From Escherichia coli (lineage in GTDB: Bacteria > Pseudomonadota > Gammaproteobacteria > Enterobacterales > Enterobacteriaceae), in NCBI RefSeq assembly GCF_001677475.2, contig NZ_CP015229.1: DNA of 64,000 nt. One strand, 5' to 3'. Of the stretch, positions 1 through 21,186 are shown in pieces. Position 1 is the first letter of the stretch; the number at the start of each line of letters is the position of its first letter. Both the position numbers and the translations under genes were made by a program. Below the pieces are notes generated by a model. The model did not search any database, was not told where the DNA came from, and saw nothing but the letters and a program-made list of their open reading frames with translations.

Positions 1-15
1 GTGTTGTTCCAGTCC

Positions 16-114
16 CTACGGCGCATTGCCGACGACCACCACCACACGCACGACGACCACTGCGGCGGATGGCGCAGTTGGTAGTAGTTTTGCGTTGAGC
101 ATGGAAGTAGTCAT
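16..114 (-). CDS. ivbL: ilvB operon leader peptide (32 aa, MTTSMLNAKLLPTAPSAAVVVVRVVVVVGNAP)
   Basis: Reverse-complement translation gives a 32-aa peptide with the Val/Leu-rich run typical of the ilvB attenuator leader; the + strand ORF 26..391 is its antisense artefact. Confidence 0.8.
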   Translation of the reverse strand: MTTSMLNAKLLPTAPSAAVVVVRVVVVVGNAP

Positions 115-240
115 TGGGGACCTTGTTGGTTTTGTGTTTAACAATATTTATACAAGCACAGCTTTACAGGGGAGACAATGGAAAATTTTTCAGCAAGGGA
201 AAATTGAGGGGTTGATCACGTTTTGTACTGTACTGCAGGT

Positions 241-316
241 AACAAAAAACCCCGCCGGAGCGAGGTTTCGTCAGCCGCCCGCGGCTGGTAACCGCAAAGC
301 ACACTGTATTATGTCA
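241..316 (-). ncRNA. istR: IstR-1 antisense sRNA (antitoxin RNA of the tisAB/istR type I toxin-antitoxin locus)
   Basis: Reverse complement of 241..320 reads GTGTTGACATAATACAGTGTGCTTTGCGGTTACCAGCCGCGGGCGGCTGACGAAACCTCGCTCCGGCGGGGTTTTTTGTT, ending in a GC hairpin plus U-run; it sits divergent from tisB. Exact 5' end not determined. Confidence 0.6.
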
Positions 317-426
317 ACACTGAAAGTATACGTGTTCCGCGCAGAACGCGCAATTTCGGCACGAATTTTGACGTATTTAGGGCATAGTTGAGTATCGATC
401 ACAGTTTGCGTTTTGTCCAAATATTA

Positions 427-442
427 CTGTTTATTTATACAG
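427..442. promoter_or_regulatory. LexA (SOS) box CTGTTTATTTATACAG upstream of tisAB
   Basis: Perfect CTGT-N8-ACAG palindrome in the tisAB promoter region. Confidence 0.6.
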
Positions 443-678
443 TAAACTTCTATAATATCACTGTACGCAATGTGTTATGCGGGGGCCGCATCGTTACCCG
501 GCGCACTAAGTCCTGGCTGAAACGGGTGGTGCCGTCAGCGCCTTAACCCCGCGTGAGCACACTGTGTTATGTCAACAAGCACAACGTTTCTCCTTGAGAT
601 ACCGCGTGCACAACAGCTGGCAACAGGCAGCGGAAAGGTACGTCAGCTGGCAGTGCTCCTGAACCACAGGAGACGCGT

Positions 679-768
679 ATGAGCCTGGTGGATATCGCCA
701 TTCTTATCCTCAAACTCATTGTTGCAGCACTGCAACTGCTTGATGCTGTTCTGAAATACCTGAAGTAA
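679..768 (+). CDS. tisB: Type I toxin TisB (29 aa, MSLVDIAILILKLIVAALQLLDAVLKYLK)
   Basis: Small hydrophobic ORF not in the supplied ORF track (below size cutoff); translated by hand; followed by a terminator. Confidence 0.85.
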   Translation: MSLVDIAILILKLIVAALQLLDAVLKYLK

Positions 769-788
769 TTCAGATTCAAGTCGCACCA

Positions 789-820
789 AAGGGGAGCGGG
801 TAACCGCTCCCCTTTTATAT
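789..820 (+). terminator. Rho-independent terminator after tisB
   Basis: GC-rich hairpin GGGGAGCGGGTAACCGCTCCCC followed by a T-run. Confidence 0.6.
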
Positions 821-1047
821 TTAGCGTGCGGGTTGGTGTCGGATGCGATGCTGACGCATCTTATCCGCCCTACCATCCCTTCCGGCAACATTTATTGCCG
901 CTTTTGTTTACATATTCTGCCGCTAAACAATTCCCCATTCCTGGCGTATATCTGGCTAACATTCATCAATGTGATAGATTCCTCTCCCGCATTTATGGGA
1001 ATGCGTAGTGACTTATTCTAATTATTTTTATAAAAGCATCCGTGATA

Positions 1048-2232
1048 ATGAAAAGGCATAGAAACGTCAATTTGTTATTGATGTTGGTATTACTCGTGGC
1101 CGTCGGTCAGATGGCGCAAACCATTTATATTCCAGCTATTGCCGATATGGCGCGCGATCTCAACGTCCGTGAAGGGGCGGTGCAGAGCGTAATGGGCGCT
1201 TATCTGCTGACTTACGGTGTCTCACAGCTGTTTTATGGCCCGATATCCGACCGCGTGGGTCGCCGACCAGTGATCCTCGTCGGAATGTCCATTTTTATGC
1301 TGGCAACGCTGGTCGCGGTCACGACCTCCAGTTTGACGGTATTGATTGCCGCCAGCGCGATGCAGGGGATGGGCACCGGCGTTGGCGGCGTAATGGCGCG
1401 TACTTTGCCGCGTGATTTATATGAACGGACACAGTTGCGCCATGCTAACAGCCTGTTAAACATGGGGATTCTTGTCAGTCCGTTGCTCGCACCGCTAATC
1501 GGCGGTCTGCTGGATACGATGTGGAACTGGCGCGCCTGTTATCTCTTTTTGTTGGTTCTTTGTGCTGGTGTGACCTTCAGTATGGCCCGCTGGATGCCGG
1601 AAACGCGTCCGGTCGATGCACCGCGCACGCGCCTGCTTACCAGTTATAAAACGCTTTTCGGTAACAGCGGTTTTAACTGTTATTTGCTGATGCTGATTGG
1701 CGGTCTGGCCGGGATTGCCGCCTTTGAAGCCTGCTCCGGCGTGCTGATGGGTGCGGTGTTAGGGTTGAGCAGTATGACGGTCAGTATTTTGTTTATTCTG
1801 CCGATTCCGGCAGCGTTTTTTGGCGCATGGTTTGCCGGACGTCCCAATAAACGCTTCTCCACGTTAATGTGGCAGTCGGTTATCTGCTGCCTGCTGGCTG
1901 GCTTGCTGATGTGGATCCCCGACTGGTTTGGCGTGATGAATGTCTGGACGCTGCTCGTTCCCGCCGCGCTGTTCTTTTTCGGTGCCGGGATGCTGTTTCC
2001 GCTGGCGACCAGCGGCGCGATGGAGCCGTTCCCCTTCCTGGCGGGCACGGCTGGCGCGCTGGTCGGCGGTCTGCAAAACATTGGTTCCGGCGTGCTGGCG
2101 TCGCTCTCTGCGATGTTGCCGCAAACCGGTCAGGGCAGCCTGGGGTTGTTGATGACCTTAATGGGATTGTTGATCGTGCTGTGCTGGCTGCCGCTGGCGA
2201 CGCGGATGTCGCATCAGGGGCAGCCCGTTTAA
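1048..2232 (+). CDS. emrD: MFS multidrug efflux transporter EmrD
   Basis: ORF 1042..2232; protein starts MKRHRNVNLLLMLVLLVAVGQ and is polytopic throughout; start trimmed to the second Met. Confidence 0.9.
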   Translation: MKRHRNVNLLLMLVLLVAVGQMAQTIYIPAIADMARDLNVREGAVQSVMGAYLLTYGVSQLFYGPISDRVGRRPVILVGMSIFMLATLVAVTTSSLTVLIAASAMQGMGTGVGGVMARTLPRDLYERTQLRHANSLLNMGILVSPLLAPLIGGLLDTMWNWRACYLFLLVLCAGVTFSMARWMPETRPVDAPRTRLLTSYKTLFGNSGFNCYLLMLIGGLAGIAAFEACSGVLMGAVLGLSSMTVSILFILPIPAAFFGAWFAGRPNKRFSTLMWQSVICCLLAGLLMWIPDWFGVMNVWTLLVPAALFFFGAGMLFPLATSGAMEPFPFLAGTAGALVGGLQNIGSGVLASLSAMLPQTGQGSLGLLMTLMGLLIVLCWLPLATRMSHQGQPV

Positions 2233-2239
2233 GCTCACG

Positions 2240-2737
2240 TCACCGCAGCATCGTCATCAGCTCCATGGGAGAACGATGCTGCTTTATCAGATCACGCATT
2301 ACCCGCATATGCGGTGCGGAGTAAGAATAAAATGCCTGATAGCCCGCACAAAGCACGTTGTCTGGCGTCTCCTCCCGAGCGTGCGGACACAGCCGATGCC
2401 AGTCGCACGCCTGGCAGTCACGGCGCGATTGCGGGTTTTCGCTGCCACACCATTTTTGTAGGGTGGCGTCAAAAAGCTCAATCGAAATACGACTGATATC
2501 TGCCCGCACCCAACACTCAAACAGGGCAATTAAAAATTTCCCCCACAGCTCTGCTGTCACCGAAGCGGCCGTCATATCGCCCCGGTCATCAAATTCAAGA
2601 TGGGGAATGAGCTGTACGGAGCGGATGCCCCGTTGTTTGAAATTGTGATAAAAATCGGCAGGTTGCAGAGCATCCTTGTACTCTACAACCAGTTTATGCC
2701 TGTCCTCTTCAGCATCAATGACCTGACTTCCTGTCAT
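2240..2737 (-). CDS. yidF: Conserved hypothetical protein YidF (165 aa)
   Basis: ORF in the expected position and length after emrD; Cys-rich. Confidence 0.75.
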   Translation of the reverse strand: MTGSQVIDAEEDRHKLVVEYKDALQPADFYHNFKQRGIRSVQLIPHLEFDDRGDMTAASVTAELWGKFLIALFECWVRADISRISIELFDATLQKWCGSENPQSRRDCQACDWHRLCPHAREETPDNVLCAGYQAFYSYSAPHMRVMRDLIKQHRSPMELMTMLR

Positions 2738-3096
2738 GCGACTCTCTCAATAAATACGATAAGTTGATGTATATGCGTTACAGCAAACAGTATTGCGAGA
2801 GATAACACCGCGAGGGAGATCAAAAATTTGTCACGGACTACGTGAAATTGGGAAAAATCGCTATTCGTGACATCCATTAAATTGCGATTACGGGTGTAGT
2901 GCCAGAGGATCAGCGCCACGATGGCGAGGATGCCAATCGAAATCCAGAATAACATGCCCGCCTGGTGCCAGTTGTGTTTGATAGCCAACGCCATCAACGC
3001 GCCGTAGCCCAGCATGGTACGAAACCACGCCAGTGATGTGCGCTCCGGCTGCAGCCCTGGGTCGGCAATGCGTCTGGCTTTGCGGCTATCCGGCAT
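2734..3096 (-). CDS. yidG: Inner membrane protein YidG (120 aa)
   Basis: Hydrophobic 120-aa ORF overlapping yidF by 4 nt. Confidence 0.75.
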   Translation of the reverse strand: MPDSRKARRIADPGLQPERTSLAWFRTMLGYGALMALAIKHNWHQAGMLFWISIGILAIVALILWHYTRNRNLMDVTNSDFSQFHVVRDKFLISLAVLSLAILFAVTHIHQLIVFIERVA

Positions 3097-3433
3097 ACAA
3101 CACCAGTCCCATAACGATCACCGCCACGACCATCAATATTAAGCTGATGATTAATAAGCTGTTGGTATAGGGCAGGTCCTCTTTCAGACGCATCGCTTTT
3201 TCATTGCGTAACCAGCGCAAGTAGCCATACATCGCTAACCCGCCGGAAAACAGACACAACAACAACGCCAGCAGTTCGCGAATGACGGGCGTGGCGAAAT
3301 CTGGCGCAAGTTGGTCAAGCCCAACCCCCGCCGCCAGAAATCCTAGTGCGGTACGGATCCACGCCAGAAAAGTACGCTCATTAGCCAGCGAGAAGCGGTA
3401 ATCGGGCGCTTCTCCGAGGCGGGAAATTTTCAT
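3086..3433 (-). CDS. yidH: Inner membrane protein YidH (DUF202, 115 aa)
   Basis: Hydrophobic 115-aa ORF overlapping yidG; operon-like arrangement yidHGF. Confidence 0.75.
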   Translation of the reverse strand: MKISRLGEAPDYRFSLANERTFLAWIRTALGFLAAGVGLDQLAPDFATPVIRELLALLLCLFSGGLAMYGYLRWLRNEKAMRLKEDLPYTNSLLIISLILMVVAVIVMGLVLYAG

Positions 3434-3603
3434 TGTTGCTCCTTTGCAATTTCACTAACGCTCTATCTTTAGCGGTTTTTTTTAAGAATTTCGTCCGCCC
3501 GTTTCCTGATATGCTTTTGCCATCCGCTGCAAGGAGGTCAGATGGGTATCATAGCGCAAATTGACATCCTCCACGCCCTGAAGGACGAGGATCCCTGCTA
3601 CGT

Positions 3604-4812
3604 TCAGGCTGTCGCCTGAATCATTTCGGTGGGTTCCTGCTTCAACGAGCGGCCTGACTGCACCATCTCTCCACAGGCAAGAACGGCGTGCCCCGCCGCT
3701 AAAATGTTACGAGCGCCATTTACATCGGCGTTCGCTGTATATCCACATACCTGGCATCTGAATTTACTTTGTGACAGGCGATTTTCTTTCGCTGTATGAC
3801 CACAGCACGCGCAACGCTGGCTTGTGTACGCTGGCGGAACAGCAAGCACCTGACCGCCACTCCAGAGCTGCTTGTACTCAAGCTGGCGGCGCATTTCATA
3901 CCAGCCCTGATCCAGTATCGTACGGTTTAAACCTGATTTTGCCCGGACATTGCGCCCCGGCTGGCTGACCGTACCCGCTGCTGACTTTGACATGTTGCTG
4001 ACCTTCAAATCCTCAATGACTATCATTGCGTGGTTTTTACTGACGGTCGTTGTGACTTTGTGAAGGTAGTCCCTGCGGATATTTGCGATACAGGAATGCA
4101 GTCGCTGTATTTTGCGTTTCTGCTTCTGCCAGTTGTTGCTGAATTTGACCTTGCGGCTTAACTGTCGCTGAAGTCTCGCCAGCGTCTTCTGGTTTTTCTG
4201 AAAACTGTTTACAGGCCCAAAGACTGTGCCATCTGACAGCGTGGCGAGTTTAGCCACGCCAGCATCCAGCCCGACCATTGATGCTGAAGGGTGAACCGGA
4301 GTTGATACTTCACTTTCAGTCTGAATACTGATGTACCACTTACCGCAGGACTGGCTGACAGTGACATTTTTCACAACACCCGTGACCTGACGGCTATTCC
4401 GGTAGCGCATCCAGCCAAGTTTCGGCAGAAAAATACGGCTTTTTTCCTGATCGAGCTTAACGCCCTGCGGGTAGCGGAATGCATCATTCTGTCCCCGCTT
4501 TTTGAATCGGGGAAAAGCAGCCCGCTTCTGGAAGAAGTTTTTGTAAGCCCGCTCAAGGTCTTTCAGTGACTGTTGCAATGGCTGTGAGGGCGAATCTTTA
4601 AGCCATTGCATTTCAGTGGCGTTTTTCCACTCAACCAGCCAGGAAGCCATTTTCCCGTAAGGGATGTATTTATTACCGGCCTCATGATTCTCATTCTGAA
4701 GCGCCAGAGCACGATTGAAAACGAAACGACATGCGCCTGCGAAGCGCCTCATTTCACGCTCCTGTTGGCCACCTGGTCTTAACTGGAATTTAAATGCCTG
4801 TAGTCGTTTCAC
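3604..4812 (-). CDS. tnpB: TnpB (OrfB) of an IS200/IS605-family element, RuvC-like with C-terminal zinc finger; putative RNA-guided nuclease
   Basis: 402 aa; N-terminus [17 protein letters not shown] (the KxYKFRLxP-type start), C-terminal CxxC...CxxC (CACCGH...CQVCGY). Confidence 0.85.
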
Positions 4813-4882
4813 AGGCCAAATGATACTTTGGTCTGTGAATAAAGAAACCGATATCCGACGGGGAAGGCATTGTGTTTTCCTG

Positions 4883-5251
4883 ATGCATGTTCACCTGGTC
4901 TTTGTCACCAGATACCGACGTCAGATTTTTGACTATGACGCGACAGAAAAACTACGCACTTACTTTTCAAATGTATGTGCTGATTTTGAAGCTGAACTGG
5001 TTGAAATGGATGGCGAACCAGATCACGTCCATTTGTTAATTAACTATCCTCCCAAACTGGCGATATCCAGTCTGGTAAACAGCCTCAAAGGCGTATCGGG
5101 TAGGTTACTGCGACGAGATCGACCAGATATTGCAGTCAGGTATTACTACAAAGGCGTTTTGTGGAGTCCTGGCTATTTTGCCAGTAGCTGCGGAGGTGCG
5201 CCAATATCCGTCATCCGCCAATACATTGAACAAAAGCAAACACCTGGTTAA
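4883..5251 (+). CDS. tnpA: IS200-like Y1 (HuH) transposase TnpA
   Basis: Contains MHVHLVFVTRYRRQ and HVHLLINYPP (HuH motif) and the C-terminal Tyr region; start uncertain (ORF opens at 4715 but that would overlap tnpB; Met at 4883 chosen). Confidence 0.7.
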   Translation: MHVHLVFVTRYRRQIFDYDATEKLRTYFSNVCADFEAELVEMDGEPDHVHLLINYPPKLAISSLVNSLKGVSGRLLRRDRPDIAVRYYYKGVLWSPGYFASSCGGAPISVIRQYIEQKQTPG

Positions 5252-5381
5252 GTGGAAAACCTCGCCTTATATCCCCGCCCTGAAGGACGGGGTTTTACGG
5301 CGCACCGGATAAATTTGGTTATGCGCCGTCAGCCGTGCTGAAGAATAGGGACCAGCACCCAACGGATGCCAGTCCACACAA

Positions 5382-8320
<2,939 letters not shown>

Positions 8321-8615
8321 TTCCACATCCTCTTTTCTCAATTCTGTAAGTAGGAAGCCTGATTGGTTATGCGGCAGGCCTGGAGCGAGGATAGGAAGAT
8401 GCGATCGGCAGAACATGACGACCCAATGGGATTCGTGATCGCTTTCATGCTTTTCGTTGGGCGGTAGAGATCTACGTTTTCGCGAAAAAGTAGACATCTG
8501 TGAGCACTGGTACACAGCATCGAACACATCTTTAAAAAAAAGATGTTTTTTCAATCGATTAAGCAGAACTTGTGGGCGCATTACCCAGGCTTGCAGGCAA
8601 AAAAGAGATCTAGAG

Positions 8616-9332
8616 ATGATCTACAAAAGCATTGCGGAGCGGTTAAGAATTCGACTTAATTCCGCAGATTTCACGCTAAACAGCCTTCTTCCCGGTGAAA
8701 AAAAGCTGGCGGAAGAGTTTGCGGTATCGCGGATGACCATCCGTAAAGCCATTGATCTGCTGGTAGCGTGGGGGCTGGTGGTCCGCCGCCACGGTAGCGG
8801 CACTTACCTGGTGCGCAAAGATGTACTGCATCAAACCGCCAGCCTGACCGGGCTGGTGGAGGTGTTAAAACGCTAGGGAAAAACGGTCACCAGCCAGGTG
8901 CTGATTTTTGAAATCATGCCTGCGCCTCCGGCCATTGCCAGCCAGTTACGGATTCAAATCAACGAGCAGATCTACTTCTCCCGTCGCGTTCGTTTTGTGG
9001 AAGGGAAACCGCTGATGCTGGAAGACAGCTATATGCCGGTAAAACTGTTCCGTAACCTTTCGCTGCAACATCTGGAAGGGTCGAAGTTTGAATATATTGA
9101 ACAAGAGTGCGGGATTCTGATTGGCGGTAATTATGAAAGCCTGACGCCGGTGCTCGCCGATAGACTGCTGGCGCGGCAAATGAAGGTAGCGGAACACACG
9201 CCACTGCTGCGGATCACCTCGTTGTCATATAGCGAGAGCGGGGAGTTTTTGAATTATTCAGTGATGTTCAGAAATGCCAGCGAATACCAGGTGGAGTACC
9301 ATTTACGGCGACTCCACCCGGAAAAGAGTTAA
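8616..9332 (+). pseudogene. yidP: GntR-family transcriptional regulator YidP (HTH + UTRA) interrupted by an in-frame amber codon at 8874..8876
   Basis: N-terminal winged-HTH part (8616..8873) and UTRA-domain part (8877..9332) are in the same frame, separated only by TAG; combined length 238 codons. Confidence 0.7.
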
Positions 9333-10990
9333 CCGATACTCCAGAAGAGCACCGCCAGTAATTGGGGGGTGATAATGCGCAGGAACATCACTAACGGATA
9401 GACAGTGGCGTAAGAGAGCGCCGCCGCACCGCTAGTTGGATGAAGATTATTAGCAAACGCCAGCGCCGGAGGATCGGTCATGGAGCCAGCCAGCATCCCG
9501 CACATGGTCAGGTAATTCATTTTGGCTAACATCCGCGCCAGAATGCCAACAGTAATCAGCGGAACGGCGGTGATCAGGGCACCATAACCAATCCAGCTTA
9601 GCCCTTCGCCATTGACCAGGGTATTCACAAAATCCCCACCAGATTTCAGACCAACGACCGAGAGGAACAGCACGATCCCCAGCTCCCGCAGCGCGAGGTT
9701 GGCACTTGGCGGCATAAACCAGTACAGCTTGCCGATACTGCCGATACGCCCGAGGATCAACGCCATAATCAGCGGACCGCCCGCCAGCCCCAGTTTCAAC
9801 GCGGCCGGGAATCCTGGCACAAAGACGGGAATAGAACCTAACAATACGCCAAGCCCGATGCCAATAAACACTGGCAGCATCTGAACCTGTTGCAGTTTTT
9901 GCTGCGCATTCCCCAGCACATTGGCAACGGCATCAATTGCGGACGGACGCCCCACCAGGTTGAGAATATCGCCGAACTGCAGGCTGATATCGCCACTGGC
10001 GACCAGTTCGACCCCGGCACGGTTCAGGCGCGAGATAACAACGTCATAGCGTTCTTTAAAGTGCAGGTCGCGAATACGTTTTCCGAGCACGTTTTCATTG
10101 GTGACCACCACACGCTCGACGCGCAAATCAGTGCCTTTCGTGGACAGCGAAGTATCGACCTCCTGACCAATCACCAGTTGCGCATTATGTAAATCCGCTG
10201 GCTGCCCCACCAGATGCAGCAAATCGCCCAGTTGTATAATGGTATCTGGCGAAGGTACTTTTAGGGTTTCTTCGCGTTTCAGACGCGAGCAGATAATTTT
10301 GTCGCCGTTGAGAATCGGTACATCTTTAATGGCTAAATCATGCAGGTTAGGGTTCTCAACGCGAATATTGATAGTCCTGATCAGCGCGCCGCCATTGGTG
10401 CGTGAAGACTCGTGCTGCTGGGCTTCTGTCTCGACATTGACGCGGAAAATAACCCGCAACATCCACATGGTGAACAAAATCCCGCAAATGCCGAATGGAT
10501 ACGCCATCGCGTAACTCATCCCCATCTGATCGACCATTTCCATTGGTGTACCCAGGTCGCGCAAGATCTGCTGCCCTGCCCCCAGTGCTGGCGTATTGGT
10601 TACCGCACCGGAGAAAATCCCCAGCACTACCGGCAGTGGAATATCAAACAGTTTATGCAGGATGGCGGTAACCAGACCACCGATGATGACGATCAGAACA
10701 GCAAACAGGTTGAGGCGTAATCCGGAGACGCGCAATGAGGCAAAGAAGCCCGGCCCTACCTGAATCCCGATAGTATAAACGAACAGGATCAGGCCAAATT
10801 CCTGAATAACATGCAGCATATCGCTACTTAATGTCATCCCCGCCTGAGAAACAAAATGGCCGACGATGATCCCACCAAACAGCACGCCGCCAATACCTAA
10901 TCCTATGCCGCGAAATTTGACGTTGCCGATAAACAAACCGACGACTGCCACCAAAGCCAGAATACTGACCGTTAATGCTATATCACTCAT
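9329..10990 (-). CDS. yidE: Putative AAE-family transporter YidE
   Basis: Two hydrophobic halves separated by a soluble TrkA-C-like segment; start set at MSDIALTVS. Confidence 0.85.
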
Positions 10991-11146
10991 CGTCCATTTC
11001 TCTTGAGATAACATTTTAATTGCTACGGATTATGGCTGAATCGGTGAAGCAGATTTGCCTTATAGCGCACATTATCACGGGAAAGAACGTGCCGAAATAT
11101 CTTAAACAGGCGAAATTTAATGCATTGTTAAAGAAGAAAGACAAAA

Positions 11147-11176
11147 AAAGCCCCACCAGAATGGCGGGGCAAAGAG
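11147..11176 (-). terminator. Rho-independent terminator downstream of ibpB
   Basis: Minus-strand hairpin GCCCCGCCATTCTGGTGGGGC followed by a T-run. Confidence 0.6.
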
Positions 11177-11185
11177 AATAGCTAG

Positions 11186-11614
11186 TTAGCTATTTAACGC
11201 GGGACGTTCGCTGATAGCGATACGCTGCGCTGCGATGGGTTCAGGCTCATTACGAATTAAATCAATATGCAGTAAACCGTTTACGAAGGTTGCACCAGAG
11301 ACTTCCATATTTTCAGCCAGCGTAAAGCTCAGGCTAAATGGCTGATTCATAAGCCCTTGATGCAGCCATTTTTTCTCTTCTTTTGGCTGCTCCGGCGTGC
11401 CTTTTACGCTCAGGCGCGTACCTTCCAGTTGAATCTCTAAATCTTCCTGACGAAAACCTGCCAGCGCGAGGGTAATGCGGTAGTGGTTATCGTCGCTTTT
11501 CTCAATGTTGTACGGCGGGAAGCTCTGGCTTTCACCGGCGTTTTGCAGTGCGTTGGCCAGTTTGTCAAAACCGATCCATTGACGCATCAGTGGGGATAAA
11601 TCGAAGTTACGCAT
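11186..11614 (-). CDS. ibpB: Small heat shock protein IbpB
   Basis: Alpha-crystallin family; starts [19 protein letters not shown]; 142 aa. Confidence 0.9.
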
Positions 11615-11725
11615 AGTCATTTCTCCTTCTAAGAAGCGAGTAATTACCTGCAAATCCGAAGATTCGCATATGCTCCCTGACGGCGAGCATGGAGATGCCA
11701 GGCCGCGCCAGGCGGCCTTAGGGAA

Positions 11726-12139
11726 TTAGTTGATTTCGATGCGGCGCGGTTTTTTCGCTTCCGGAATCACGCGTTCGAGATCGATATACAGCAGACCATT
11801 CACCAGGTTAGCACCACGAACATGAATGTTCTCAGCTAACTGGAATTTACGTTCAAAGTTGCGTTCAGCGATGCCCTGGTACAGATAGGTGCGCTCTTTT
11901 TGTTCGTCGGCGTGAGCACCTTTCACCACCAGAAGATTATCCTGGGCGGTAATTTCCAGTTCGCTCTCAGCAAAACCAGCCACAGCGATAGCAATGCGGT
12001 AATGGTTTTCGTCTACCAGTTCAACGTTATACGGAGGGTAGCCGCCATTACTCTGGCTCTGGTTGTTTTCTAAGTGGTTAAACAAACGGTCAAATCCAAT
12101 AGCAGAACGGTAAAGCGGGGATAAATCAAAGTTACGCAT
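11726..12139 (-). CDS. ibpA: Small heat shock protein IbpA
   Basis: Starts [19 protein letters not shown]; paralog of ibpB; 137 aa. Confidence 0.9.
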
Positions 12140-12260
12140 AATCAATAGCTCCTGAAATCAGCGAGAATGTAAGACCTTCCACAATGGACAGGTCAGGTAG
12201 CCAGAACCCCCATCAGGCGCGTCCTCATCGGCTACGATGTAAAAATGGGTCTGGAAATGA
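12140..12260 (-). promoter_or_regulatory. ibpA 5' leader / heat-shock promoter region (sigma-32 promoter and ROSE-like RNA thermometer expected)
   Basis: Position upstream of ibpA; called from known biology of ibpA rather than from a motif resolved here. Confidence 0.4.
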
Positions 12261-12444
12261 ACTTTTCAAGCCTTATCAGCGGACTTTTTTTTGCAGTTTA
12301 TGGTCTATTGCATAGACTGAGGGGGCAGCACGAAACGTTAAAGTGCGATAGCCGCCACAGTGCGACGTAATGATGATGTTATTTTCAGCAAGGGATCGCT
12401 ATAACTCATCAGGCCAACACCCACGATCAACAGATGAATTTATT

Positions 12445-12777
12445 ATGATAAGAAATGTGTTGTTAGCGTTCATGATATGCAGCGGAATGACATTACTCGG
12501 AGGATGCTCCAGCGTGATGTCCCATACCGGGGGGAAAGAAGGAACGTATCCTGGCACCCGCGCCAGCGCCACCATGATTGGCGACGATGAAACCAACTGG
12601 GGCACTAAGTCGCTGGCGATTCTCGATATGCCGTTTACCGCTGTGATGGACACGCTTTTACTGCCGTGGGATGTGTTCCGCAAAGACAGCTCGGTGCGCT
12701 CGCGCGTTGAAAAAAGCGAAGCCAACGCGCAAGCCACCAATGCGGTTATTCCACCCGCCAGAATGCCTGATAACTGA
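12445..12777 (+). CDS. yidQ: Lipoprotein YidQ (DUF1375)
   Basis: Starts MIRNVLLAFMICSGMTLLGGCSS (lipobox LLGGC). Confidence 0.8.
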   Translation: MIRNVLLAFMICSGMTLLGGCSSVMSHTGGKEGTYPGTRASATMIGDDETNWGTKSLAILDMPFTAVMDTLLLPWDVFRKDSSVRSRVEKSEANAQATNAVIPPARMPDN

Positions 12778-12778
12778 T

Positions 12779-14029
12779 TTAGCGATCAGTTTCGGTGATC
12801 CACAGCTGGCCACCTTCCATCCACGCCAGCCACTGACCATCCGGCGAGAAGACCACGGCGTCCGCAGAAGGTGGATTGGCGTGGTTTTCGGTTAAATACT
12901 CAACCTCGCCGCTTTGCGCATGGGCGCAAGCAATTCGATTATCCAGCACAAAGCCCAACCATTCTCCTGACGGATGCCAGTTAAATGCAGACTGAATATC
13001 CGTTTTGTTATGGGTTAACTGGCGCGGCTCGCCGCCTTGTGCCGAGATAAGCCACAGTTGCACAATGCCGTTATCATCACGCATTAAAAACGCGATTTGC
13101 GTACCCTGCGGATTACAGCGCACCCAGTGGCGCGGGACGTTGACTAACCCCGGATAAGCCCGATGGTGGGTAAAGGTTAAACGTCGCTGCACGACGCCAC
13201 GCGGTGGCGCGGGCAGGGTTGTTTCCGTTCCACTTAACGGCGCATCACCTGCCGCTTTCCAGCCAGCTTCATCTTGCGGTAACTCAACGATAAACAGCTC
13301 CGGCACTTTCTCGCCCTTTGGCGAAAGTGTGTCGCCAATAAACGCCAGCGCGTGATTTCCTACCCATCCTTCTTCATAAGCACGATTGATTTCATCGCTG
13401 CCAGGCTGCGGCGTGGGCGTTGTTTTACTCACCAGCACACACCAGTGGCTACCGCTGTATTCACGCGGATGCTGCTTTTGTACATTGACCGGGCCAAACG
13501 GTGCAGCAACACCGACGTTTCGCAAATCCAGCGCCGGATCGAGTTGATGCATTACATGGTCGTTATAGGTAAAGCTCACCCTTTCACCGTTCGGGTTAAA
13601 GACATGCACATGGCTGCCACCGCGCAGCGCCCCTGGCGTATACGGCGCGGTAATATCCATCGCATCAAGGTTACTCACCTTGCCGCCTTCAACAATCACT
13701 CCGCGCCGATGATGGAAGTCGTAATGCCATGTTTCATCAGGATTTTCCGGGCCGTGAATGAAGACATATTTTTCTGACTTCGGATGAACGGTCACCACGC
13801 CGACGTGTGCGCCCTGTGACGCGCGATAGATAACCTCGACCTCGCCGGTATGGATATTCACACGCTCAATGGTCTCGCCGGTAAACGACGCCCCAGAAGG
13901 ACGCACGTCAAATACCAGCCACTGGCTGTCGGGCGTCCAGGTATTGGTATTGGTGAGCAGGTGATTACGGGGAGCAAAGGTTATCTGTTTCATGGCGCGG
14001 TCCTGATACAAAACGGTTCCCGCCATCAT
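12779..14029 (-). CDS. yidR: Conserved protein YidR (DUF3748, beta-propeller-like)
   Basis: 416-aa ORF in the expected position; exact start uncertain (alternative Met 12 codons in). Confidence 0.75.
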   Translation of the reverse strand: MMAGTVLYQDRAMKQITFAPRNHLLTNTNTWTPDSQWLVFDVRPSGASFTGETIERVNIHTGEVEVIYRASQGAHVGVVTVHPKSEKYVFIHGPENPDETWHYDFHHRRGVIVEGGKVSNLDAMDITAPYTPGALRGGSHVHVFNPNGERVSFTYNDHVMHQLDPALDLRNVGVAAPFGPVNVQKQHPREYSGSHWCVLVSKTTPTPQPGSDEINRAYEEGWVGNHALAFIGDTLSPKGEKVPELFIVELPQDEAGWKAAGDAPLSGTETTLPAPPRGVVQRRLTFTHHRAYPGLVNVPRHWVRCNPQGTQIAFLMRDDNGIVQLWLISAQGGEPRQLTHNKTDIQSAFNWHPSGEWLGFVLDNRIACAHAQSGEVEYLTENHANPPSADAVVFSPDGQWLAWMEGGQLWITETDR

Positions 14030-14093
14030 ACTTCACAAGGACTTCACTTTCAGACAATAGTCTTTTGCCATCGTGATGAATGTGAGTAAAAAG

Positions 14094-15194
14094 ATGGAAC
14101 ATTTCGACGTGGCGATTATTGGCCTCGGCCCGGCGGGGTCGGCGTTGGCGCGGCAGTTAGCAGGCAAAATGCAGGTGATCGCGCTGGATAAAAAGCACCA
14201 GTACGGTACTGAAGGTTTCAGCAAGCCTTGTGGTGGTCTGCTGGCACCGGACGCGCAGCGTTCTTTTATTCGCGATGGACTGACGCTTCCTGTCGATGTA
14301 ATCGCCAATCCGCAGATTTTCAGCGTCAAAACCGTCGACGTCGCCGCATCGCTCACGCGTAACTACCAGCGGAGCTATATCAATATTAATCGCCATGCTT
14401 TCGACTTGTGGATGAAATCGCTGATCCCCGCCAGCGTTGAGGTTTATCACGACAGCCTGTGTCGAAAAATCTGGCGTGAGGATGATAAATGGCATGTCAT
14501 TTTTCGTGCAGACGGCTGGGAGCAACATATTACTGCCCGCTATCTGGTCGGTGCCGATGGCGCAAACTCGATGGTGCGGCGACATCTCTACCCGGATCAT
14601 CAAATCCGTAAATATGTCGCTATCCAGCAGTGGTTCGCAGAGAAACATCCGGTGCCGTTCTACTCCTGCATCTTTGATAATTCGATAACTAACTGTTATT
14701 CATGGAGTATCAGCAAAGACGGTTATTTTATCTTTGGCGGTGCCTATCCAATGAAAGACGGTCAGACGCGTTTCGCGACGCTGAAAGAGAAAATGAGCGC
14801 CTTTCAGTTCCAGTTTGGTAAGGCGGTGAAAAGCGAAAAATGCACGGTGCTGTTTCCCTCACGCTGGCAGGATTTTGTCTGCGGTAAGGACAACGCCTTT
14901 CTGATTGGCGAAGCGGCGGGATTTATCAGCGCCAGCTCGCTGGAAGGGATTAGCTATGCGCTGGATAGCGCAGAGATTCTGCGTGCGGTGTTCCTGAAAC
15001 AGCCGGAGAAGAGCAACGCCGCTTACTGGCGCGCCACCCGCAAACTGCGTTTAAAACTCTTCGGCAAGATAGTAAAAAGCCGATGCCTGACCGCACCGGC
15101 TTTAAGAAAGTGGATTATGCGCAGTGGTGTGGCGCATATTCCACAGTTGAAAGATTATCCAACGCGCTTCACATCGCCCACCAGCAGGATGTAA
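14094..15194 (+). CDS. cbrA: FAD-dependent oxidoreductase CbrA (colicin E2 tolerance protein)
   Basis: N-terminal FAD-binding [24 protein letters not shown]; the 3' end overlaps the convergent dgoT remnant. Confidence 0.8.
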
Positions 15195-15268
15195 GAGAGT
15201 GCGCCAATCAACGCGACGACGGAGATATAAACCAGTGCAGGCGCGAAGCCATAGCCTTGCAACAGATA
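15156..15268 (-). pseudogene. dgoT: 3'-terminal remnant (about 37 codons) of the D-galactonate MFS transporter gene dgoT; the rest of dgoT and dgoDAKR are absent
   Basis: Minus-strand frame reads [45 protein letters not shown], a terminal MFS transmembrane helix with no upstream ORF. Confidence 0.5.
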
Positions 15269-15404
15269 TTAGTCCACAAAAAAACAACTCATAAGAAAAG
15301 GTCTTATATCGGGCAGAAATCTGAAAAGGGAGATCAGGCGCTAAACAGGAGGGAAAGAAGAGTATGCTTTCAACGGCTTAGCGATCTTGTTTAAAGGATT
15401 AATC

Positions 15405-16061
15405 ATGAATTTGAATTTTAAGGGATTTTTTAAGGCTGCCGGTTTATTCCCACTGGCGCTGATGCTTTCGGGCTGTATCTCGTATGCCCTGGTTTCCCAT
15501 ACCGCAAAGGGTACTTCAGGAAAGTATCAATCGCAGTCAGACACCATCACGGGGCTATCGCAGGCAAAGGATAGTAATGGAACAAAAGGCTATGTTTTTG
15601 TAGGGGAATCGCTGGATTACCTTATCACTGATGGTGCCGATGACATCGTTAAGATGCTCAATGATCCAGCACTTAACCGGCACAATATTCAGGTTGCTGA
15701 TGACGCAAGATTTGTTTTAAATGCGGGGAAAAAGAAATTTACCGGCACAATATCGCTTTACTACTACTGGAATAACGAAGAAGAAAAGGCACTGGCAACG
15801 CATTATGATTTTGCCTGTGGTGTTCAACACTGTACCAGGTCACTGGAAAACCTAAAAGGCACAATCCATGAGAAAAATAAAAACATGGATTACTCAAAGG
15901 TGATGGCGTTCTACCATCCATTTAAAGTGCGATTTTATGAATACTATTCACCCAGAGGCATTCCGGATGGTGTTTCCGCAGCATTACTGCCAGTGACTGT
16001 TACGCTGGACATCATTACTGCACCGCTGCAATTTCTGGTTGTATATGCAGTAAACCAATAA
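15405..16061 (+). CDS. yidX: Lipoprotein YidX
   Basis: Starts [27 protein letters not shown] (lipobox LSGC). Confidence 0.8.
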
Positions 16062-16106
16062 TCAGTAAGCGGGCAAACGCGTTTATGCTGTTTGCCCGTC
16101 CACTGA

Positions 16107-16919
16107 TTAATTCAGCACATACTTCTCAATAGCAAACGCCACGCCATCTTCAAGGTTGGATTTGGTGACAAAGTTCGCCACTTCTTTCACCGAAGGAATA
16201 GCGTTATCCATCGCCACACCGACGCCTGCATATTCAATCATTGCGATGTCGTTTTCCTGATCGCCAATCGCCATGATTTCTTCCGGTTTAATACCTAACA
16301 CGTCGGCCAGTGATTTCACACCCGTACCTTTGTTAACGCGTTTATCGAGGATTTCGAGGAAGTACGGCGCACTTTTCAGCACGGTATATTTCTCTTTCAC
16401 TTCCTGCGGAATACGCGCGATCGCCTGGTCGAGGATGGCGGGTTCATCAATCATCATCACTTTCAGGAACTGGGTATTGGGGTCCATTTTCTCCGCTTCG
16501 CAGAATACCAGCGGAATGGTGGCAACGAAGGATTCATGCACCGTGTAGTAGCTGATATCGCGATTTGCTGTATACAGCGTGGTGCGGTCCAGGGCGTGGA
16601 AATGAGAACCGACTTCGCGAGAGAGTTTTTCCAGGAAACGGTAGTCGTCATAGCTGAGAGCGGTTTGCGCCACGGTGCTACCATCAGCGGCCTTCTGTAC
16701 CAGCGCGCCGTTATAAGTAATGCAGTAGTCGCCCGGCTGTTCCATATGCAGCTCTTTCAGGTAATTGTGCACACCTGCATACGGGCGACCCGTCGTTAGC
16801 ACGACATTCACGCCACGGGCGCGAGCTGCGGCAATCGCATTTTTAACAGCGGGTGAAATGGTGTGATCGGGCAGCAGAAGGGTGCCATCCATATCGATAG
16901 CAATGAGTTTGATAGCCAT
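16107..16919 (-). CDS. yidA: HAD-superfamily sugar phosphatase YidA (Cof-type)
   Basis: Starts MAIKLIAIDMDGTLL (HAD motif I DxDGT); 270 aa. Confidence 0.9.
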   Translation of the reverse strand: MAIKLIAIDMDGTLLLPDHTISPAVKNAIAAARARGVNVVLTTGRPYAGVHNYLKELHMEQPGDYCITYNGALVQKAADGSTVAQTALSYDDYRFLEKLSREVGSHFHALDRTTLYTANRDISYYTVHESFVATIPLVFCEAEKMDPNTQFLKVMMIDEPAILDQAIARIPQEVKEKYTVLKSAPYFLEILDKRVNKGTGVKSLADVLGIKPEEIMAIGDQENDIAMIEYAGVGVAMDNAIPSVKEVANFVTKSNLEDGVAFAIEKYVLN

Positions 16920-17033
16920 GAGTTCCCCAGGTAGATTGGTTCCTGACTCATGCTAACGCGATTCCGCTCAAAAATCAGTACAACACCCGAGGGAAAAGGG
17001 GGATGCAACGCGTGTTGCGTGCTCCCCTTTTGC

Positions 17034-17432
17034 TTAGCGGAAGAGTTTCCCTTTCAGCAGTTCCATACCTGCGGAAAGCAGATCGTTATTGGCTTGTGGT
17101 GACACTTCACCTTGCGGTGAGAGTGCATCAATAATCTTCGGCAATTGCTCTGCCAGTAAGCTGGAAGCCGTACTGGTATCCACGCCCAGTTTTTGCCCGA
17201 GATCGGACACCGCATTTGTGCCGAGCGCTGATTCCAGTTGCTCGCCGCTAACTGGTTGGTTGCCCTGTTGATTACTCAACCAGGTTGAGAGAATGGCACC
17301 TAAACCGCCACTTTGCAGTTTTTCCAGCAGCACCTGGATGCCTCCCTGTTCCTCAACCCAACTTAAAATCGCCTGATATTTTCCCGCATCGCCTTTCAGA
17401 AAGGCACCGACAACTTCATCAAAAAGCCCCAT
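17034..17432 (-). CDS. yidB: Conserved protein YidB (DUF937)
   Basis: About 132 aa ending GMELLKGKLFR; start set at MGLFDEVVG. Confidence 0.8.
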   Translation of the reverse strand: MGLFDEVVGAFLKGDAGKYQAILSWVEEQGGIQVLLEKLQSGGLGAILSTWLSNQQGNQPVSGEQLESALGTNAVSDLGQKLGVDTSTASSLLAEQLPKIIDALSPQGEVSPQANNDLLSAGMELLKGKLFR

Positions 17433-17510
17433 GATAATCACCTGTAAAGCGTTACGTGTTGACCCAAAAAGTATAGATCTGCGGGATGATAATTGCGGAT
17501 TGCAGAAATA

Positions 17511-17543
17511 AAAAGGGCGGAGATGATCTCCGCCCTTTTTTAT
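17511..17543. terminator. Bidirectional rho-independent terminator between yidB and gyrB
   Basis: AAAAAGGGCGGAGATGATCTCCGCCCTTTTTTAT: hairpin flanked by A-run and T-run. Confidence 0.7.
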
Positions 17544-17549
17544 AGCTTC

Positions 17550-17655
17550 TTGCCGGATGCGGCGTTAACGCCTTATCCGGCCTACAAAATCATGCAAATT
17601 CAATACATTGCAGGAGTCTCGTAGGACTGATAAGCGTAGCGCATCAGGCACGCTC
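17550..17655. repeat. REP/BIME element (two REP units)
   Basis: GCCGGATGCGGCGTTAACGCCTTATCCGGCCTAC and GTAGGACTGATAAGCGTAGCGCATCAGGCA match the REP consensus. Confidence 0.75.
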
Positions 17656-17670
17656 GCATGGTTAACGCCA

Positions 17671-21186
<3,516 letters not shown>

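What the first reader, a model, noticed from the sequence alone, without database searches (positions are those of the whole stretch)
241..768. tisB/istR-1 type I toxin-antitoxin locus with visible antisense target
The SOS-induced toxin TisB and the divergent sRNA IstR-1 are both present and were missed by the ORF track because of size. The near-identical direct repeat on the plus strand (CACACTGTATTATGTCAACA at 301..320 and CACACTGTGTTATGTCAACA at 562..581) means the minus-strand IstR-1 transcript is complementary to the tisAB mRNA leader, which is the known inhibitory pairing. A LexA box lies at 427..442.
Basis: partly seen in the sequence, partly recalled or inferred. Interest (0 to 1): 0.3.

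Follow-up and report, generated by a model that had tools for sequence, protein, structure and literature searches.

The report
Known tisB/istR-1 toxin-antitoxin locus

Summary
The finding is correct and already known. Window 244-373 (-) is a full-length match to Rfam istR (147.7 bits against a cut-off of 45). Window 679-768 (+) encodes a 29-aa TisB that passes both NCBIfam TisB equivalog models and Pfam TisB_toxin. The region is about 99% identical to the K-12 ivbL-istR-tisAB-ysdE-emrD locus.

Both quoted 20-mers exist, but at 300-319 and 558-577, not 301-320 and 562-581. The repeat extends to 22 nt (298-319 / 556-577). Its single A308/G566 difference gives a G.U wobble, so the IstR-1 5' end (318->298) pairs without mismatch to the tisAB leader at 557-577, 101 nt before the tisB AUG. 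K-12 has the same pairing.

The LexA core at 427-442 is exact; the 20-mer at 425-444 matches 18/20 consensus positions. All published promoter hexamers and the AGGAGA ribosome-binding site are present.

In 9 further loci (2 other Escherichia species, plus Citrobacter, Salmonella, Intestinirhabdus and the divergent 'Escherichia sp. ESNIH1'), seed and target are the most conserved segments. I found no compensatory double changes.

The only coding difference from K-12 is TisB N2S, already published as the dominant, toxic E. coli variant. Nothing here is new. Expression, SOS induction and toxicity in this strain are inferred, not tested.

The parts
244..318 (-). IstR-1 antitoxin sRNA (75 nt). It has a single-stranded 5' tail, an internal stem-loop and a terminator hairpin followed by a U-run.
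   Evidence: Lies inside the Rfam istR match at 244-373. The fold has MFE -31.2 kcal/mol, z = -2.8, with nt 1-12 unpaired and two hairpins. The 5' end at 318 is inferred: it lies 7 nt downstream of the TATACT -10 box at 330-325, and the published length is 75 nt (own knowledge, Vogel et al. 2004).
244..383 (-). IstR-2, the longer SOS-induced transcript that shares the IstR-1 3' end (about 140 nt).
   Evidence: The Rfam istR model covers 244-373. The promoter-like pair TGGACA (419-414) / 17 nt / GATACT (396-391) places +1 near 383. The same hexamers are tabulated for istR-2 in PMC11264685. The 5' end is inferred.
298..318 (-). IstR-1 5' pairing segment (seed), complementary to the tisAB leader.
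   Evidence: Pairing shown. Identical to K-12. 19 of 21 columns are invariant across 10 loci from 4 genera.
325..330 (-). istR-1 promoter -10 hexamer TATACT.
   Evidence: Found. Same hexamer as listed in PMC11264685.
391..419 (-). istR-2 promoter: -35 TGGACA (419-414) and -10 GATACT (396-391), 17-nt spacer.
   Evidence: PMC11264685.
425..444 (.). LexA operator (SOS box) TACTGTTTATTTATACAGTA, lying between the divergent tisAB and istR-2 promoters.
   Evidence: Core at 427-442. 18 of 20 positions match the consensus. Palindrome found (I5). Mean cross-genus identity 0.93.
451..456 (+). tisAB promoter -10 hexamer TATAAT.
   Evidence: PMC11264685. The LexA box overlaps the position expected for the -35 hexamer and the spacer.
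463..822 (+). tisAB primary mRNA. The ends are approximate: +1 is inferred about 7 nt after the -10 box, and the 3' end at the terminator U-run.
   Evidence: The -10 box is at 451-456 and the terminator at 788-815. With +1 = 463, the published +106 RNase III product would start at 568, inside the 557-577 duplex, which fits PMC6690012.
557..577 (+). IstR-1 target, the ribosome standby site in the tisAB leader. The 22-nt repeat copy spans 556-577.
   Evidence: The site ends 101 nt before the tisB AUG. It is the most conserved segment of the locus, mean identity 0.98.
569..682 (+). tisA ORF (37 codons; its stop overlaps the tisB start as ATGA). Probably not a functional coding gene.
   Evidence: ORF listed. 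No protein-family hit. None of the seven non-Escherichia-genus-like loci (three Citrobacter sp., C. amalonaticus, Salmonella, Intestinirhabdus, Escherichia sp. ESNIH1) keeps a TisA-type reading frame starting at the E. coli ATG.
668..673 (+). tisB Shine-Dalgarno sequence AGGAGA, predicted to be sequestered in structure.
   Evidence: PMC11264685. Predicted P(unpaired) is about 0.15 in the +1, +42 and +106 forms.
679..768 (+). tisB toxin gene, 29 aa, N2S variant (MSLVDIAILILKLIVAALQLLDAVLKYLK).
   Evidence: NCBIfam NF011340 69.9 bits (cut-off 53) and TIGR04459 61.5 bits (cut-off 38). Pfam PF13939 37.6 bits (cut-off 25). RefSeq annotates the same position as tisB.
788..822 (+). tisAB intrinsic terminator: a 12-bp perfect stem with a 4-nt loop, then a T-rich tail.
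   Evidence: (I1).

Best explanation
Window 244-822 is an intact copy of the chromosomal tisB/istR-1 type I toxin-antitoxin module of Escherichia, sitting between ivbL and ysdE/emrD as in K-12. Proposed working, taken from the K-12 literature and inferred here from near-identity: LexA bound at 425-444 represses tisAB and the divergent istR-2 promoter. DNA damage removes LexA and the tisAB mRNA is made from about 463. The primary transcript is not translatable because the tisB SD/AUG (668-681) is buried in structure and the mRNA 5' end pairs with the upstream standby region. Removal of the first 41 nt gives the active +42 mRNA, in which 30S subunits load at the single-stranded standby region (557-577) about 100 nt upstream and slide to the tisB start. 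Constitutively made IstR-1 (244-318, minus strand) pairs through its first 21 nt (318->298) with this standby region. That blocks 30S loading and triggers RNase III cleavage to the inert +106 mRNA. When tisAB mRNA exceeds IstR-1, the 29-aa hydrophobic TisB inserts in the inner membrane, collapses the proton motive force and ATP, and promotes dormant persister cells. Shown here: every sequence element is present, intact, correctly arranged and conserved. Inferred from the literature: transcription, processing, RNase III cleavage, toxicity and persistence in this particular strain.
For: istR passes the Rfam covariance model full-length at 147.7 bits against a gathering score of 45. TisB passes both NCBIfam equivalog models and the Pfam model above their curated cut-offs. 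The first 1100 bases are 99.0-99.4% identical to complete E. coli genomes that RefSeq annotates ivbL / tisB / ysdE / emrD. Against K-12, only 4 substitutions fall in 241-768: 275 and 280 turn U-A into U.G in an IstR stem, 381 lies near the IstR-2 5' end, and 683 gives TisB N2S. Seed and target form 21 Watson-Crick pairs plus 1 G.U over 22 nt, and both arms are identical to K-12. The IstR-1 fold leaves the first 12 nt unpaired, followed by two hairpins. The LexA box, all promoter hexamers and the ribosome-binding site match those tabulated for MG1655 (PMC11264685). In the +1 MFE structure the mRNA 5' end (465-484) pairs with 547-567, covering half of the standby site, and the SD is about 85% paired in all forms. 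Across 10 loci from Escherichia, Citrobacter, Salmonella and Intestinirhabdus, the seed (0.96) and target (0.98) are the most conserved segments, while the flanks drop to 0.57 and 0.40. The target lies 99-104 nt before the AUG in 11 of the 12 loci examined, including the window. The mechanism comes from PMC6690012, PMC4147584, PMC11264685 and PMC2826370.
Against: Nothing in the sequence argues against this. The limits are as follows. No expression or phenotype data exist for this strain. [quoted passage not shown] Thermodynamic modelling reproduces the published +1 versus +42 accessibility switch only weakly: P(unpaired) of the target is 0.39 against 0.46. The cross-species comparison shows conservation and one-sided changes only, with no compensatory double substitutions. 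It therefore supports constraint on both arms but does not prove pairing independently. Some Citrobacter and Intestinirhabdus loci tolerate an A.C mismatch inside the duplex.
Confidence: 0.97

Rival explanations
1. The locus is present but is a decayed, non-functional remnant, for example with a dead promoter, a broken pairing or an inactive toxin variant.
For: There are four substitutions relative to K-12, including one in TisB (N2S) and one near the IstR-2 start. About 20% of complete E. coli genomes lack the module altogether, so it is dispensable.
Against: Every defined element is intact: promoters, LexA box, seed, target, SD, ORF and both terminators. The two IstR stem changes keep pairing as U.G. 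N2S is the majority E. coli allele (85%) and is at least as toxic as the K-12 allele (PMC11264685). The same TisB sequence occurs in other Escherichia species and in Citrobacter.
Confidence: 0.02
2. The 22-nt direct repeat is a relic of duplication or a chance repeat, and regulation of tisB does not depend on it.
For: No compensatory covariation was found across genera. Short additional repeats between the two regions (D4, D7) could hint at an old duplication.
Against: No match occurred in 100 shuffles. Both copies are the most conserved segments of the locus across four genera, more conserved than the toxin ORF itself. The only seed change in Escherichia converts a G-C pair into G.U, which keeps pairing. 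Published experiments show that IstR-1 pairing blocks 30S and S1 binding and translation (PMC6690012, PMC4147584). D4 and D7 are not collinear with the core repeat.
Confidence: 0.01
3. tisA is a genuine leader ORF whose translation is coupled to tisB, as with hok/mok, and IstR-1 acts by blocking the tisA start, which lies inside the duplex at 569-571.
For: The tisA ATG (569-571) lies inside the IstR-1 target, and the tisA stop overlaps the tisB start as ATGA.
Against: The tisA ATG is replaced by ACG in two Citrobacter loci and in Intestinirhabdus. The other non-Escherichia-like loci do not keep a TisA-type frame from that ATG either. tisA has no family hit. The literature attributes repression to standby-site occlusion, not to translation of a leader ORF (PMC4147584, PMC6690012).
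Confidence: 0.02

Closest known systems
E. coli K-12 MG1655 tisB/istR-1 (tisAB / istR-1 / istR-2) type I toxin-antitoxin locus
   Same: Same genomic position (ivbL - istR - tisAB - ysdE - emrD). About 99% nucleotide identity. Identical IstR-1 seed, standby target, LexA box, promoter hexamers, SD, tisA ORF and terminator stems.
   Different: Four substitutions within 241-768. C275 and C280 replace T in K-12 and give U.G instead of U-A pairs in the IstR internal stem. G381 replaces T, about +3 of IstR-2. G683 replaces A and gives TisB N2S. The N2S change also lowers the predicted accessibility of the AUG from 0.31 to 0.10 in silico. N2S is the published consensus E. coli allele (PMC11264685).
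Other SOS-controlled or divergently encoded type I systems of E. coli (dinQ/agrB, shoB/ohsC, zor/orz)
   Same: [quoted passage not shown]
   Different: The toxin and RNA families are different. The window's RNA and peptide match the istR and TisB models specifically.
hok/sok (plasmid R1) type I system
   Same: An antisense RNA represses a membrane toxin, the mRNA is activated by processing, and the duplex is cleaved by RNase III.
   Different: Sok overlaps its target in cis and acts through the translated leader ORF mok. IstR-1 is encoded in trans-like fashion (divergent, with only 21 nt complementary) and occludes a standby site. tisA is not conserved as an ORF.

Membership tests
istR RNA (Rfam RF01400) | Sequence and secondary structure score at or above the curated gathering threshold, over the full model length. 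| tested here: met
   147.7 bits against 45, E = 6.6e-32, model positions 1-130 of 130, at 244-373 (-).
istR RNA (Rfam RF01400) | IstR-1 architecture: a single-stranded 5' tail, an internal stem-loop and a Rho-independent terminator. | tested here: met
   In the fold of 244-318 (-), nt 1-12 are unpaired and two hairpins are followed by UUUUUU. MFE is -31.2 kcal/mol, z = -2.8. A terminator-like site is found at 261-249.
TisB toxin (NCBIfam NF011340 / TIGR04459; Pfam PF13939) | An intact 29-aa ORF scoring above the curated cut-offs. | tested here: met
   69.9 bits against 53, 61.5 against 38 and 37.6 against 25. The ORF at 679-768 has an ATG and is preceded by AGGAGA.
tisB/istR-1 type I toxin-antitoxin system | About 21 nt of complementarity between the IstR-1 5' end and the tisAB leader, about 100 nt upstream of the tisB ribosome-binding site. 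| tested here: met
   Positions 318->298 pair with 557-577: 20 Watson-Crick pairs plus 1 G.U in the 21 nt (22 nt counting position 319). The site ends 101 nt before the AUG.
tisB/istR-1 type I toxin-antitoxin system | Divergent gene arrangement with a LexA operator in the shared control region. | tested here: met
   istR is on the minus strand and tisAB on the plus strand. The LexA 20-mer at 425-444 matches 18/20 consensus positions and lies between the istR-2 -35 (414-419) and the tisAB -10 (451-456).
tisB/istR-1 type I toxin-antitoxin system | Orthologous chromosomal position (between ivbL/ilvB and emrD) and near-identity to the reference locus. | tested here: met
   99.0% identity to a K-12 derivative over 1100 nt, with the same annotated neighbours.
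tisB/istR-1 type I toxin-antitoxin system | SOS-induced tisAB transcription, constitutive IstR-1, 5' processing to +42 and RNase III cleavage to +106. | not testable with these tools
   Established for K-12 (PMC6690012, PMC4147584). Here it is only inferred from sequence identity. The predicted +106 position (568) falls inside the duplex.
tisB/istR-1 type I toxin-antitoxin system | TisB is toxic (membrane depolarisation) and IstR-1 neutralises it. | not testable with these tools
   The N2S allele encoded here was shown to be toxic on overproduction in PMC11264685. It was not tested for this strain.

The most novel reading that the evidence does not exclude
The istR-tisAB module may behave as a self-contained cassette of about 630 bp that is gained or lost as a unit. 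It is missing from 1068 of 5426 complete E. coli genomes. In strain LS4, window positions about 247-879 are replaced by about 100 nt of unrelated DNA, with one boundary right at the IstR terminator. Across genera, conservation collapses just outside the two terminators, from at least 0.88 to 0.57 and 0.40. If the module moves between lineages by a defined mechanism without any mobility gene, that would be a modest new point about how chromosomal type I systems spread. Presence/absence variation itself is already reported (PMC11264685).
Probability: 0.1. Interest if true: 0.25.

Novelty: already known. Interest (0 to 1): 0.05.

Why it matters
It matters only as annotation. A 29-codon toxin gene and its sRNA antitoxin are easily missed by ORF-based tracks, and this window carries an intact copy of a system implicated in SOS-induced, ciprofloxacin-tolerant persister formation (PMC2826370). 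No open question becomes testable through this copy. Its sequence elements are identical to the experimentally dissected K-12 locus, and its one protein difference (N2S) has already been described and tested.

Tried and rejected
(1) Extended pairing or duplication origin. RNAduplex of IstR-1 against the whole tisAB mRNA gave a 70-nt interaction at -78 kcal/mol. Shuffled sRNAs gave -56.8 +/- 4.4 kcal/mol, with a minimum of -75.9. The extra short repeats (D4 248-261/545-558, D7 264-275/528-539) are not collinear with the core and lie in stable IstR hairpins. I rejected this as evidence for anything beyond the 21-22-nt core.

(2) Compensatory covariation across species. None was found. There are only one-sided changes (G-C to G.U in Escherichia), plus an A.C mismatch in some Citrobacter and Intestinirhabdus loci. 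The comparative support is therefore conservation, not covariation.

(3) In-silico accessibility of the standby site in the +1, +42 and +106 mRNAs. The MFE of +1 shows the 5' end pairing with half of the site, but ensemble accessibilities differ little, 0.39 against 0.46. This is weak support only.

(4) The third partial copy of the repeat at 468-479 (CAATGTGTTATG, D1) as a possible second IstR-1 site. It lies in the 5' segment that pairs with the quasi-palindromic standby region in the +1 fold, which probably explains the resemblance. About 0.5 such matches are expected from all-against-all comparison (my estimate). Not pursued.

(5) Family searches for TisA and YsdE found no hits.

(6) An Rfam search of the DNA that replaces the module in strain LS4 found only a sub-threshold REP-like hit.

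(7) Of the 15 pattern hits in genome contigs, two are not native tisB loci: an Acidobacteria MAG is a chance match inside a longer ORF, and a 243-bp 'Bacillus hominis' contig is E. coli-like contamination. Two more (L011, L015) are real tisB loci whose stored DNA stops before istR.

Full report
OBSERVATION. The two 20-mers occur once each in the 64-kb window, at 300-319 and 558-577, with no match in 100 dinucleotide-preserving shuffles. The repeat extends to 22 nt (298-319 / 556-577) with one difference, A308 against G566. The LexA core CTGT-N8-ACAG is exactly at 427-442. It lies in the palindromic 20-mer TACTGTTTATTTATACAGTA at 425-444, which matches the consensus at 18 of 20 positions. A 29-codon ORF at 679-768 (+) encodes MSLVDIAILILKLIVAALQLLDAVLKYLK.

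IDENTITY. A scan of window 1-3000 against all Rfam families gave one strong hit: istR (RF01400) at 244-373 on the minus strand. It scores 147.7 bits against a gathering score of 45, with E = 6.6e-32, and covers the full model. The 29-aa peptide passes both NCBIfam TisB equivalog models (69.9 bits against 53; 61.5 against 38) and Pfam TisB_toxin (37.6 against 25).

The first 1100 bases match 5421 of 5426 complete E. coli genomes. Full-length matches are 98.6-99.4% identical and are annotated ivbL / tisB / ysdE / emrD. A K-12 derivative has exactly this arrangement.

A base-by-base alignment with K-12 shows four substitutions inside 241-768:
- C275 and C280 replace T. On the RNA strand this changes two U-A pairs of the IstR internal stem into U.G, so the stem is kept (structure line).
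- G381 replaces T, near the IstR-2 5' end.
- G683 replaces A, which gives TisB N2S.

Both arms of the antisense pairing, the LexA box, the promoters, the SD and tisA are identical to K-12.

ANATOMY. On the minus strand, the -10 hexamer TATACT (330-325) places the IstR-1 start at about 318. TGGACA (419-414) / 17 nt / GATACT (396-391) places the IstR-2 start at about 383. On the plus strand, TATAAT (451-456) follows the LexA box and places tisAB +1 at about 463. The SD AGGAGA is at 668-673, and a perfect 12-bp terminator stem is at 788-815. These are the hexamers tabulated for MG1655 and found conserved in more than 94% of E. coli loci in PMC11264685.

IstR-1 (244-318) folds with its first 12 nt free, followed by an internal stem-loop and a terminator hairpin plus U-run (-31.2 kcal/mol, z = -2.8). 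The segment 5'-(U)GUUGACAUAAUACAGUGUGCU-3' pairs with mRNA 556-577 through 21 Watson-Crick pairs and one G.U, with no mismatch. If IstR-1 starts at G318, this is the 21-nt complementarity reported in the literature (PMC4147584). The duplex ends 101 nt before the tisB AUG. With +1 = 463, the published +106 RNase III product would begin at 568, inside the duplex.

MECHANISM. This is known from K-12 and inferred here. LexA represses tisAB, and DNA damage induces it. The primary (+1) mRNA is translationally inert. Removal of 41 nt yields the +42 mRNA, in which a single-stranded standby site about 100 nt upstream of the sequestered ribosome-binding site lets 30S subunits preload through protein S1. 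IstR-1 pairs across that site, blocks 30S and S1 binding, and directs RNase III cleavage to the inert +106 mRNA (PMC6690012, PMC4147584). [quoted passage not shown] TisB depolarises the inner membrane and promotes ciprofloxacin-tolerant persisters (PMC2826370, PMC8145889).

In-silico folding of the window's transcripts agrees qualitatively. The SD is about 85% paired in all forms. In the +1 MFE structure the 5' end (465-484) pairs with 547-567, covering half of the standby site. However, ensemble accessibility of the target rises only from 0.39 to 0.46 on +42 processing, so this is weak support.

RELATED LOCI. One DNA-pattern scan of 100,044 species genomes for the TisB C-terminus returned 15 loci:
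- 11 carry a divergent istR above the Rfam threshold.
- 2 are real tisB loci whose stored DNA stops before istR.
- 1 is E. coli-like contamination in a Bacillus assembly.
- 1 is a chance match in an Acidobacteria genome assembled from a metagenome.

TisB is nearly invariant from Escherichia to Citrobacter, Salmonella and Intestinirhabdus. In each species, the IstR-1 seed finds its complement in its own tisB leader with 20-22 of 22 positions paired. The site lies 99-104 nt before the AUG in 11 of the 12 loci examined, including the window.

The Escherichia G.U wobble is a G-C pair elsewhere, a one-sided change in the sRNA that keeps pairing. Some Citrobacter and Intestinirhabdus loci have an A.C mismatch. 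No compensatory double changes were seen.

Measured as identity to the window across 10 non-redundant loci, the conservation profile is as follows:

| Segment | Mean identity |
|---|---|
| IstR-1 target | 0.98 |
| IstR-1 seed | 0.96 |
| tisB ORF | 0.94 |
| LexA box | 0.93 |
| Left flank, outside the terminator | 0.57 |
| Right flank, outside the terminator | 0.40 |

The tisA start codon is not conserved outside Escherichia. This fits the view that tisA is not a functional gene and argues against hok/mok-type coupling.

COMPARISON AND NOVELTY. Every testable defining feature of the istR RNA family, the TisB family and the tisB/istR-1 system is met. Expression, processing and toxicity cannot be tested with these tools. 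The single protein difference from K-12 (N2S) is the majority E. coli allele (85%) and has been shown to be toxic (PMC11264685). The locus is therefore already known.

SIDE OBSERVATIONS. The module is absent from 1068 of 5426 complete E. coli genomes. In strain LS4, window positions about 247-879 are replaced by about 100 nt. In strain B20159 an ISKox3 element sits in the middle of the LexA box, with an 8-bp TTATTTAT target duplication. Some strains carry a 139-bp palindromic insertion just after the tisB terminator. Presence/absence variation of tis/istR has been reported before (PMC11264685).

VERDICT. This is an ordinary, correctly identified, already characterised locus. Interest is 0.05.

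Noticed in passing
window ~247-879, compared with L003 (E. coli LS4) 1747-1846: The whole istR-tisAB module is missing from 1068 of 5426 complete E. coli genomes. In LS4, about 633 bp are replaced by about 100 nt of unrelated sequence. The left breakpoint is at the IstR terminator. The left flank (window 192-246) is homologous but strongly diverged, and the right flank from 880 onward is 100% identical.
   Followed up: partly
L005 (E. coli B20159) ~1185-2500, corresponding to window 431-438: An ISL3-family ISKox3 element is inserted in the centre of the LexA box, with an 8-bp target duplication TTATTTAT. This splits CTGT from ACAG and separates tisAB from its upstream promoter sequences. That strain's tisAB and istR-2 may have lost LexA control.
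   Followed up: partly
window ~843-877, compared with L004 (FDAARGOS_433) ~1140-1310: Some E. coli genomes (rows H8-H11) carry a 139-bp longer version of the tisB-ysdE spacer. It contains a long GC-rich palindrome (CCCTCTCCCCAAAGGGGCGAGGGGA ... TCCCCCTCGCCCCTTTGGGGAGAGGG) in place of the window's REP-like element.
   Followed up: no
window 837-869 (+): A REP-like palindrome just after the tisB terminator. It gives a weak, sub-threshold match to Rfam naRNA4 (22 bits against 59.5).
   Followed up: no
window 895-966 (-): A 24-codon ORF, MNVSQIYARNGELFSGRICKQKRQ, corresponds to the RefSeq-annotated small protein YsdE between tisB and emrD. It has no Pfam or NCBIfam hit.
   Followed up: partly
window 468-479 (+): A third partial copy of the repeat (CAATGTGTTATG, 11 of 12 identical to 560-571) lies at +6 to +17 of the tisAB primary transcript (D1). 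It sits in the 5' segment predicted to pair with the quasi-palindromic standby region in the inactive +1 mRNA. It may be a by-product of that pairing, or chance.
   Followed up: partly
window 569-571 (tisA ATG) and loci L016, L017, L018: The tisA start codon lies inside the IstR-1 target. It is ACG in two Citrobacter loci and in Intestinirhabdus, which creates an A.C mismatch in their duplex (the third Citrobacter locus, L008, has the same target change). The TisA reading frame is not conserved outside Escherichia.
   Followed up: yes
window 683 (tisB codon 2) and 802 (terminator loop): The N2S substitution (A683G) lowers the predicted accessibility of the tisB AUG from 0.31 to 0.10. Together with the change in the terminator loop, it makes the mRNA fold 3.8 kcal/mol more stable than in K-12. 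PMC11264685 reports N2S as somewhat more toxic at low induction.
   Followed up: partly
window 1-20000: The best complete E. coli genomes are only 98.3% identical over the first 20 kb, and they span 24.7 kb for the same interval, an indel of about 4.7 kb. The window therefore comes from a lineage (E. coli or Shigella) not closely represented among RefSeq complete E. coli genomes.
   Followed up: no
window 16-114 (-): ivbL, the ilvB operon leader peptide (MTTSMLNAKLLPTAPSAAVVVVRVVVVVGNAP), is another small ORF that size-filtered ORF tracks would miss.
   Followed up: partly
L009 (NZ_BOQD01000672.1, 'Bacillus hominis', 243-bp contig): This contig is 98.4% identical to window 717-900 (the tisB 3' end and terminator). 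It is almost certainly Escherichia contamination in a Bacillus assembly.
   Followed up: yes
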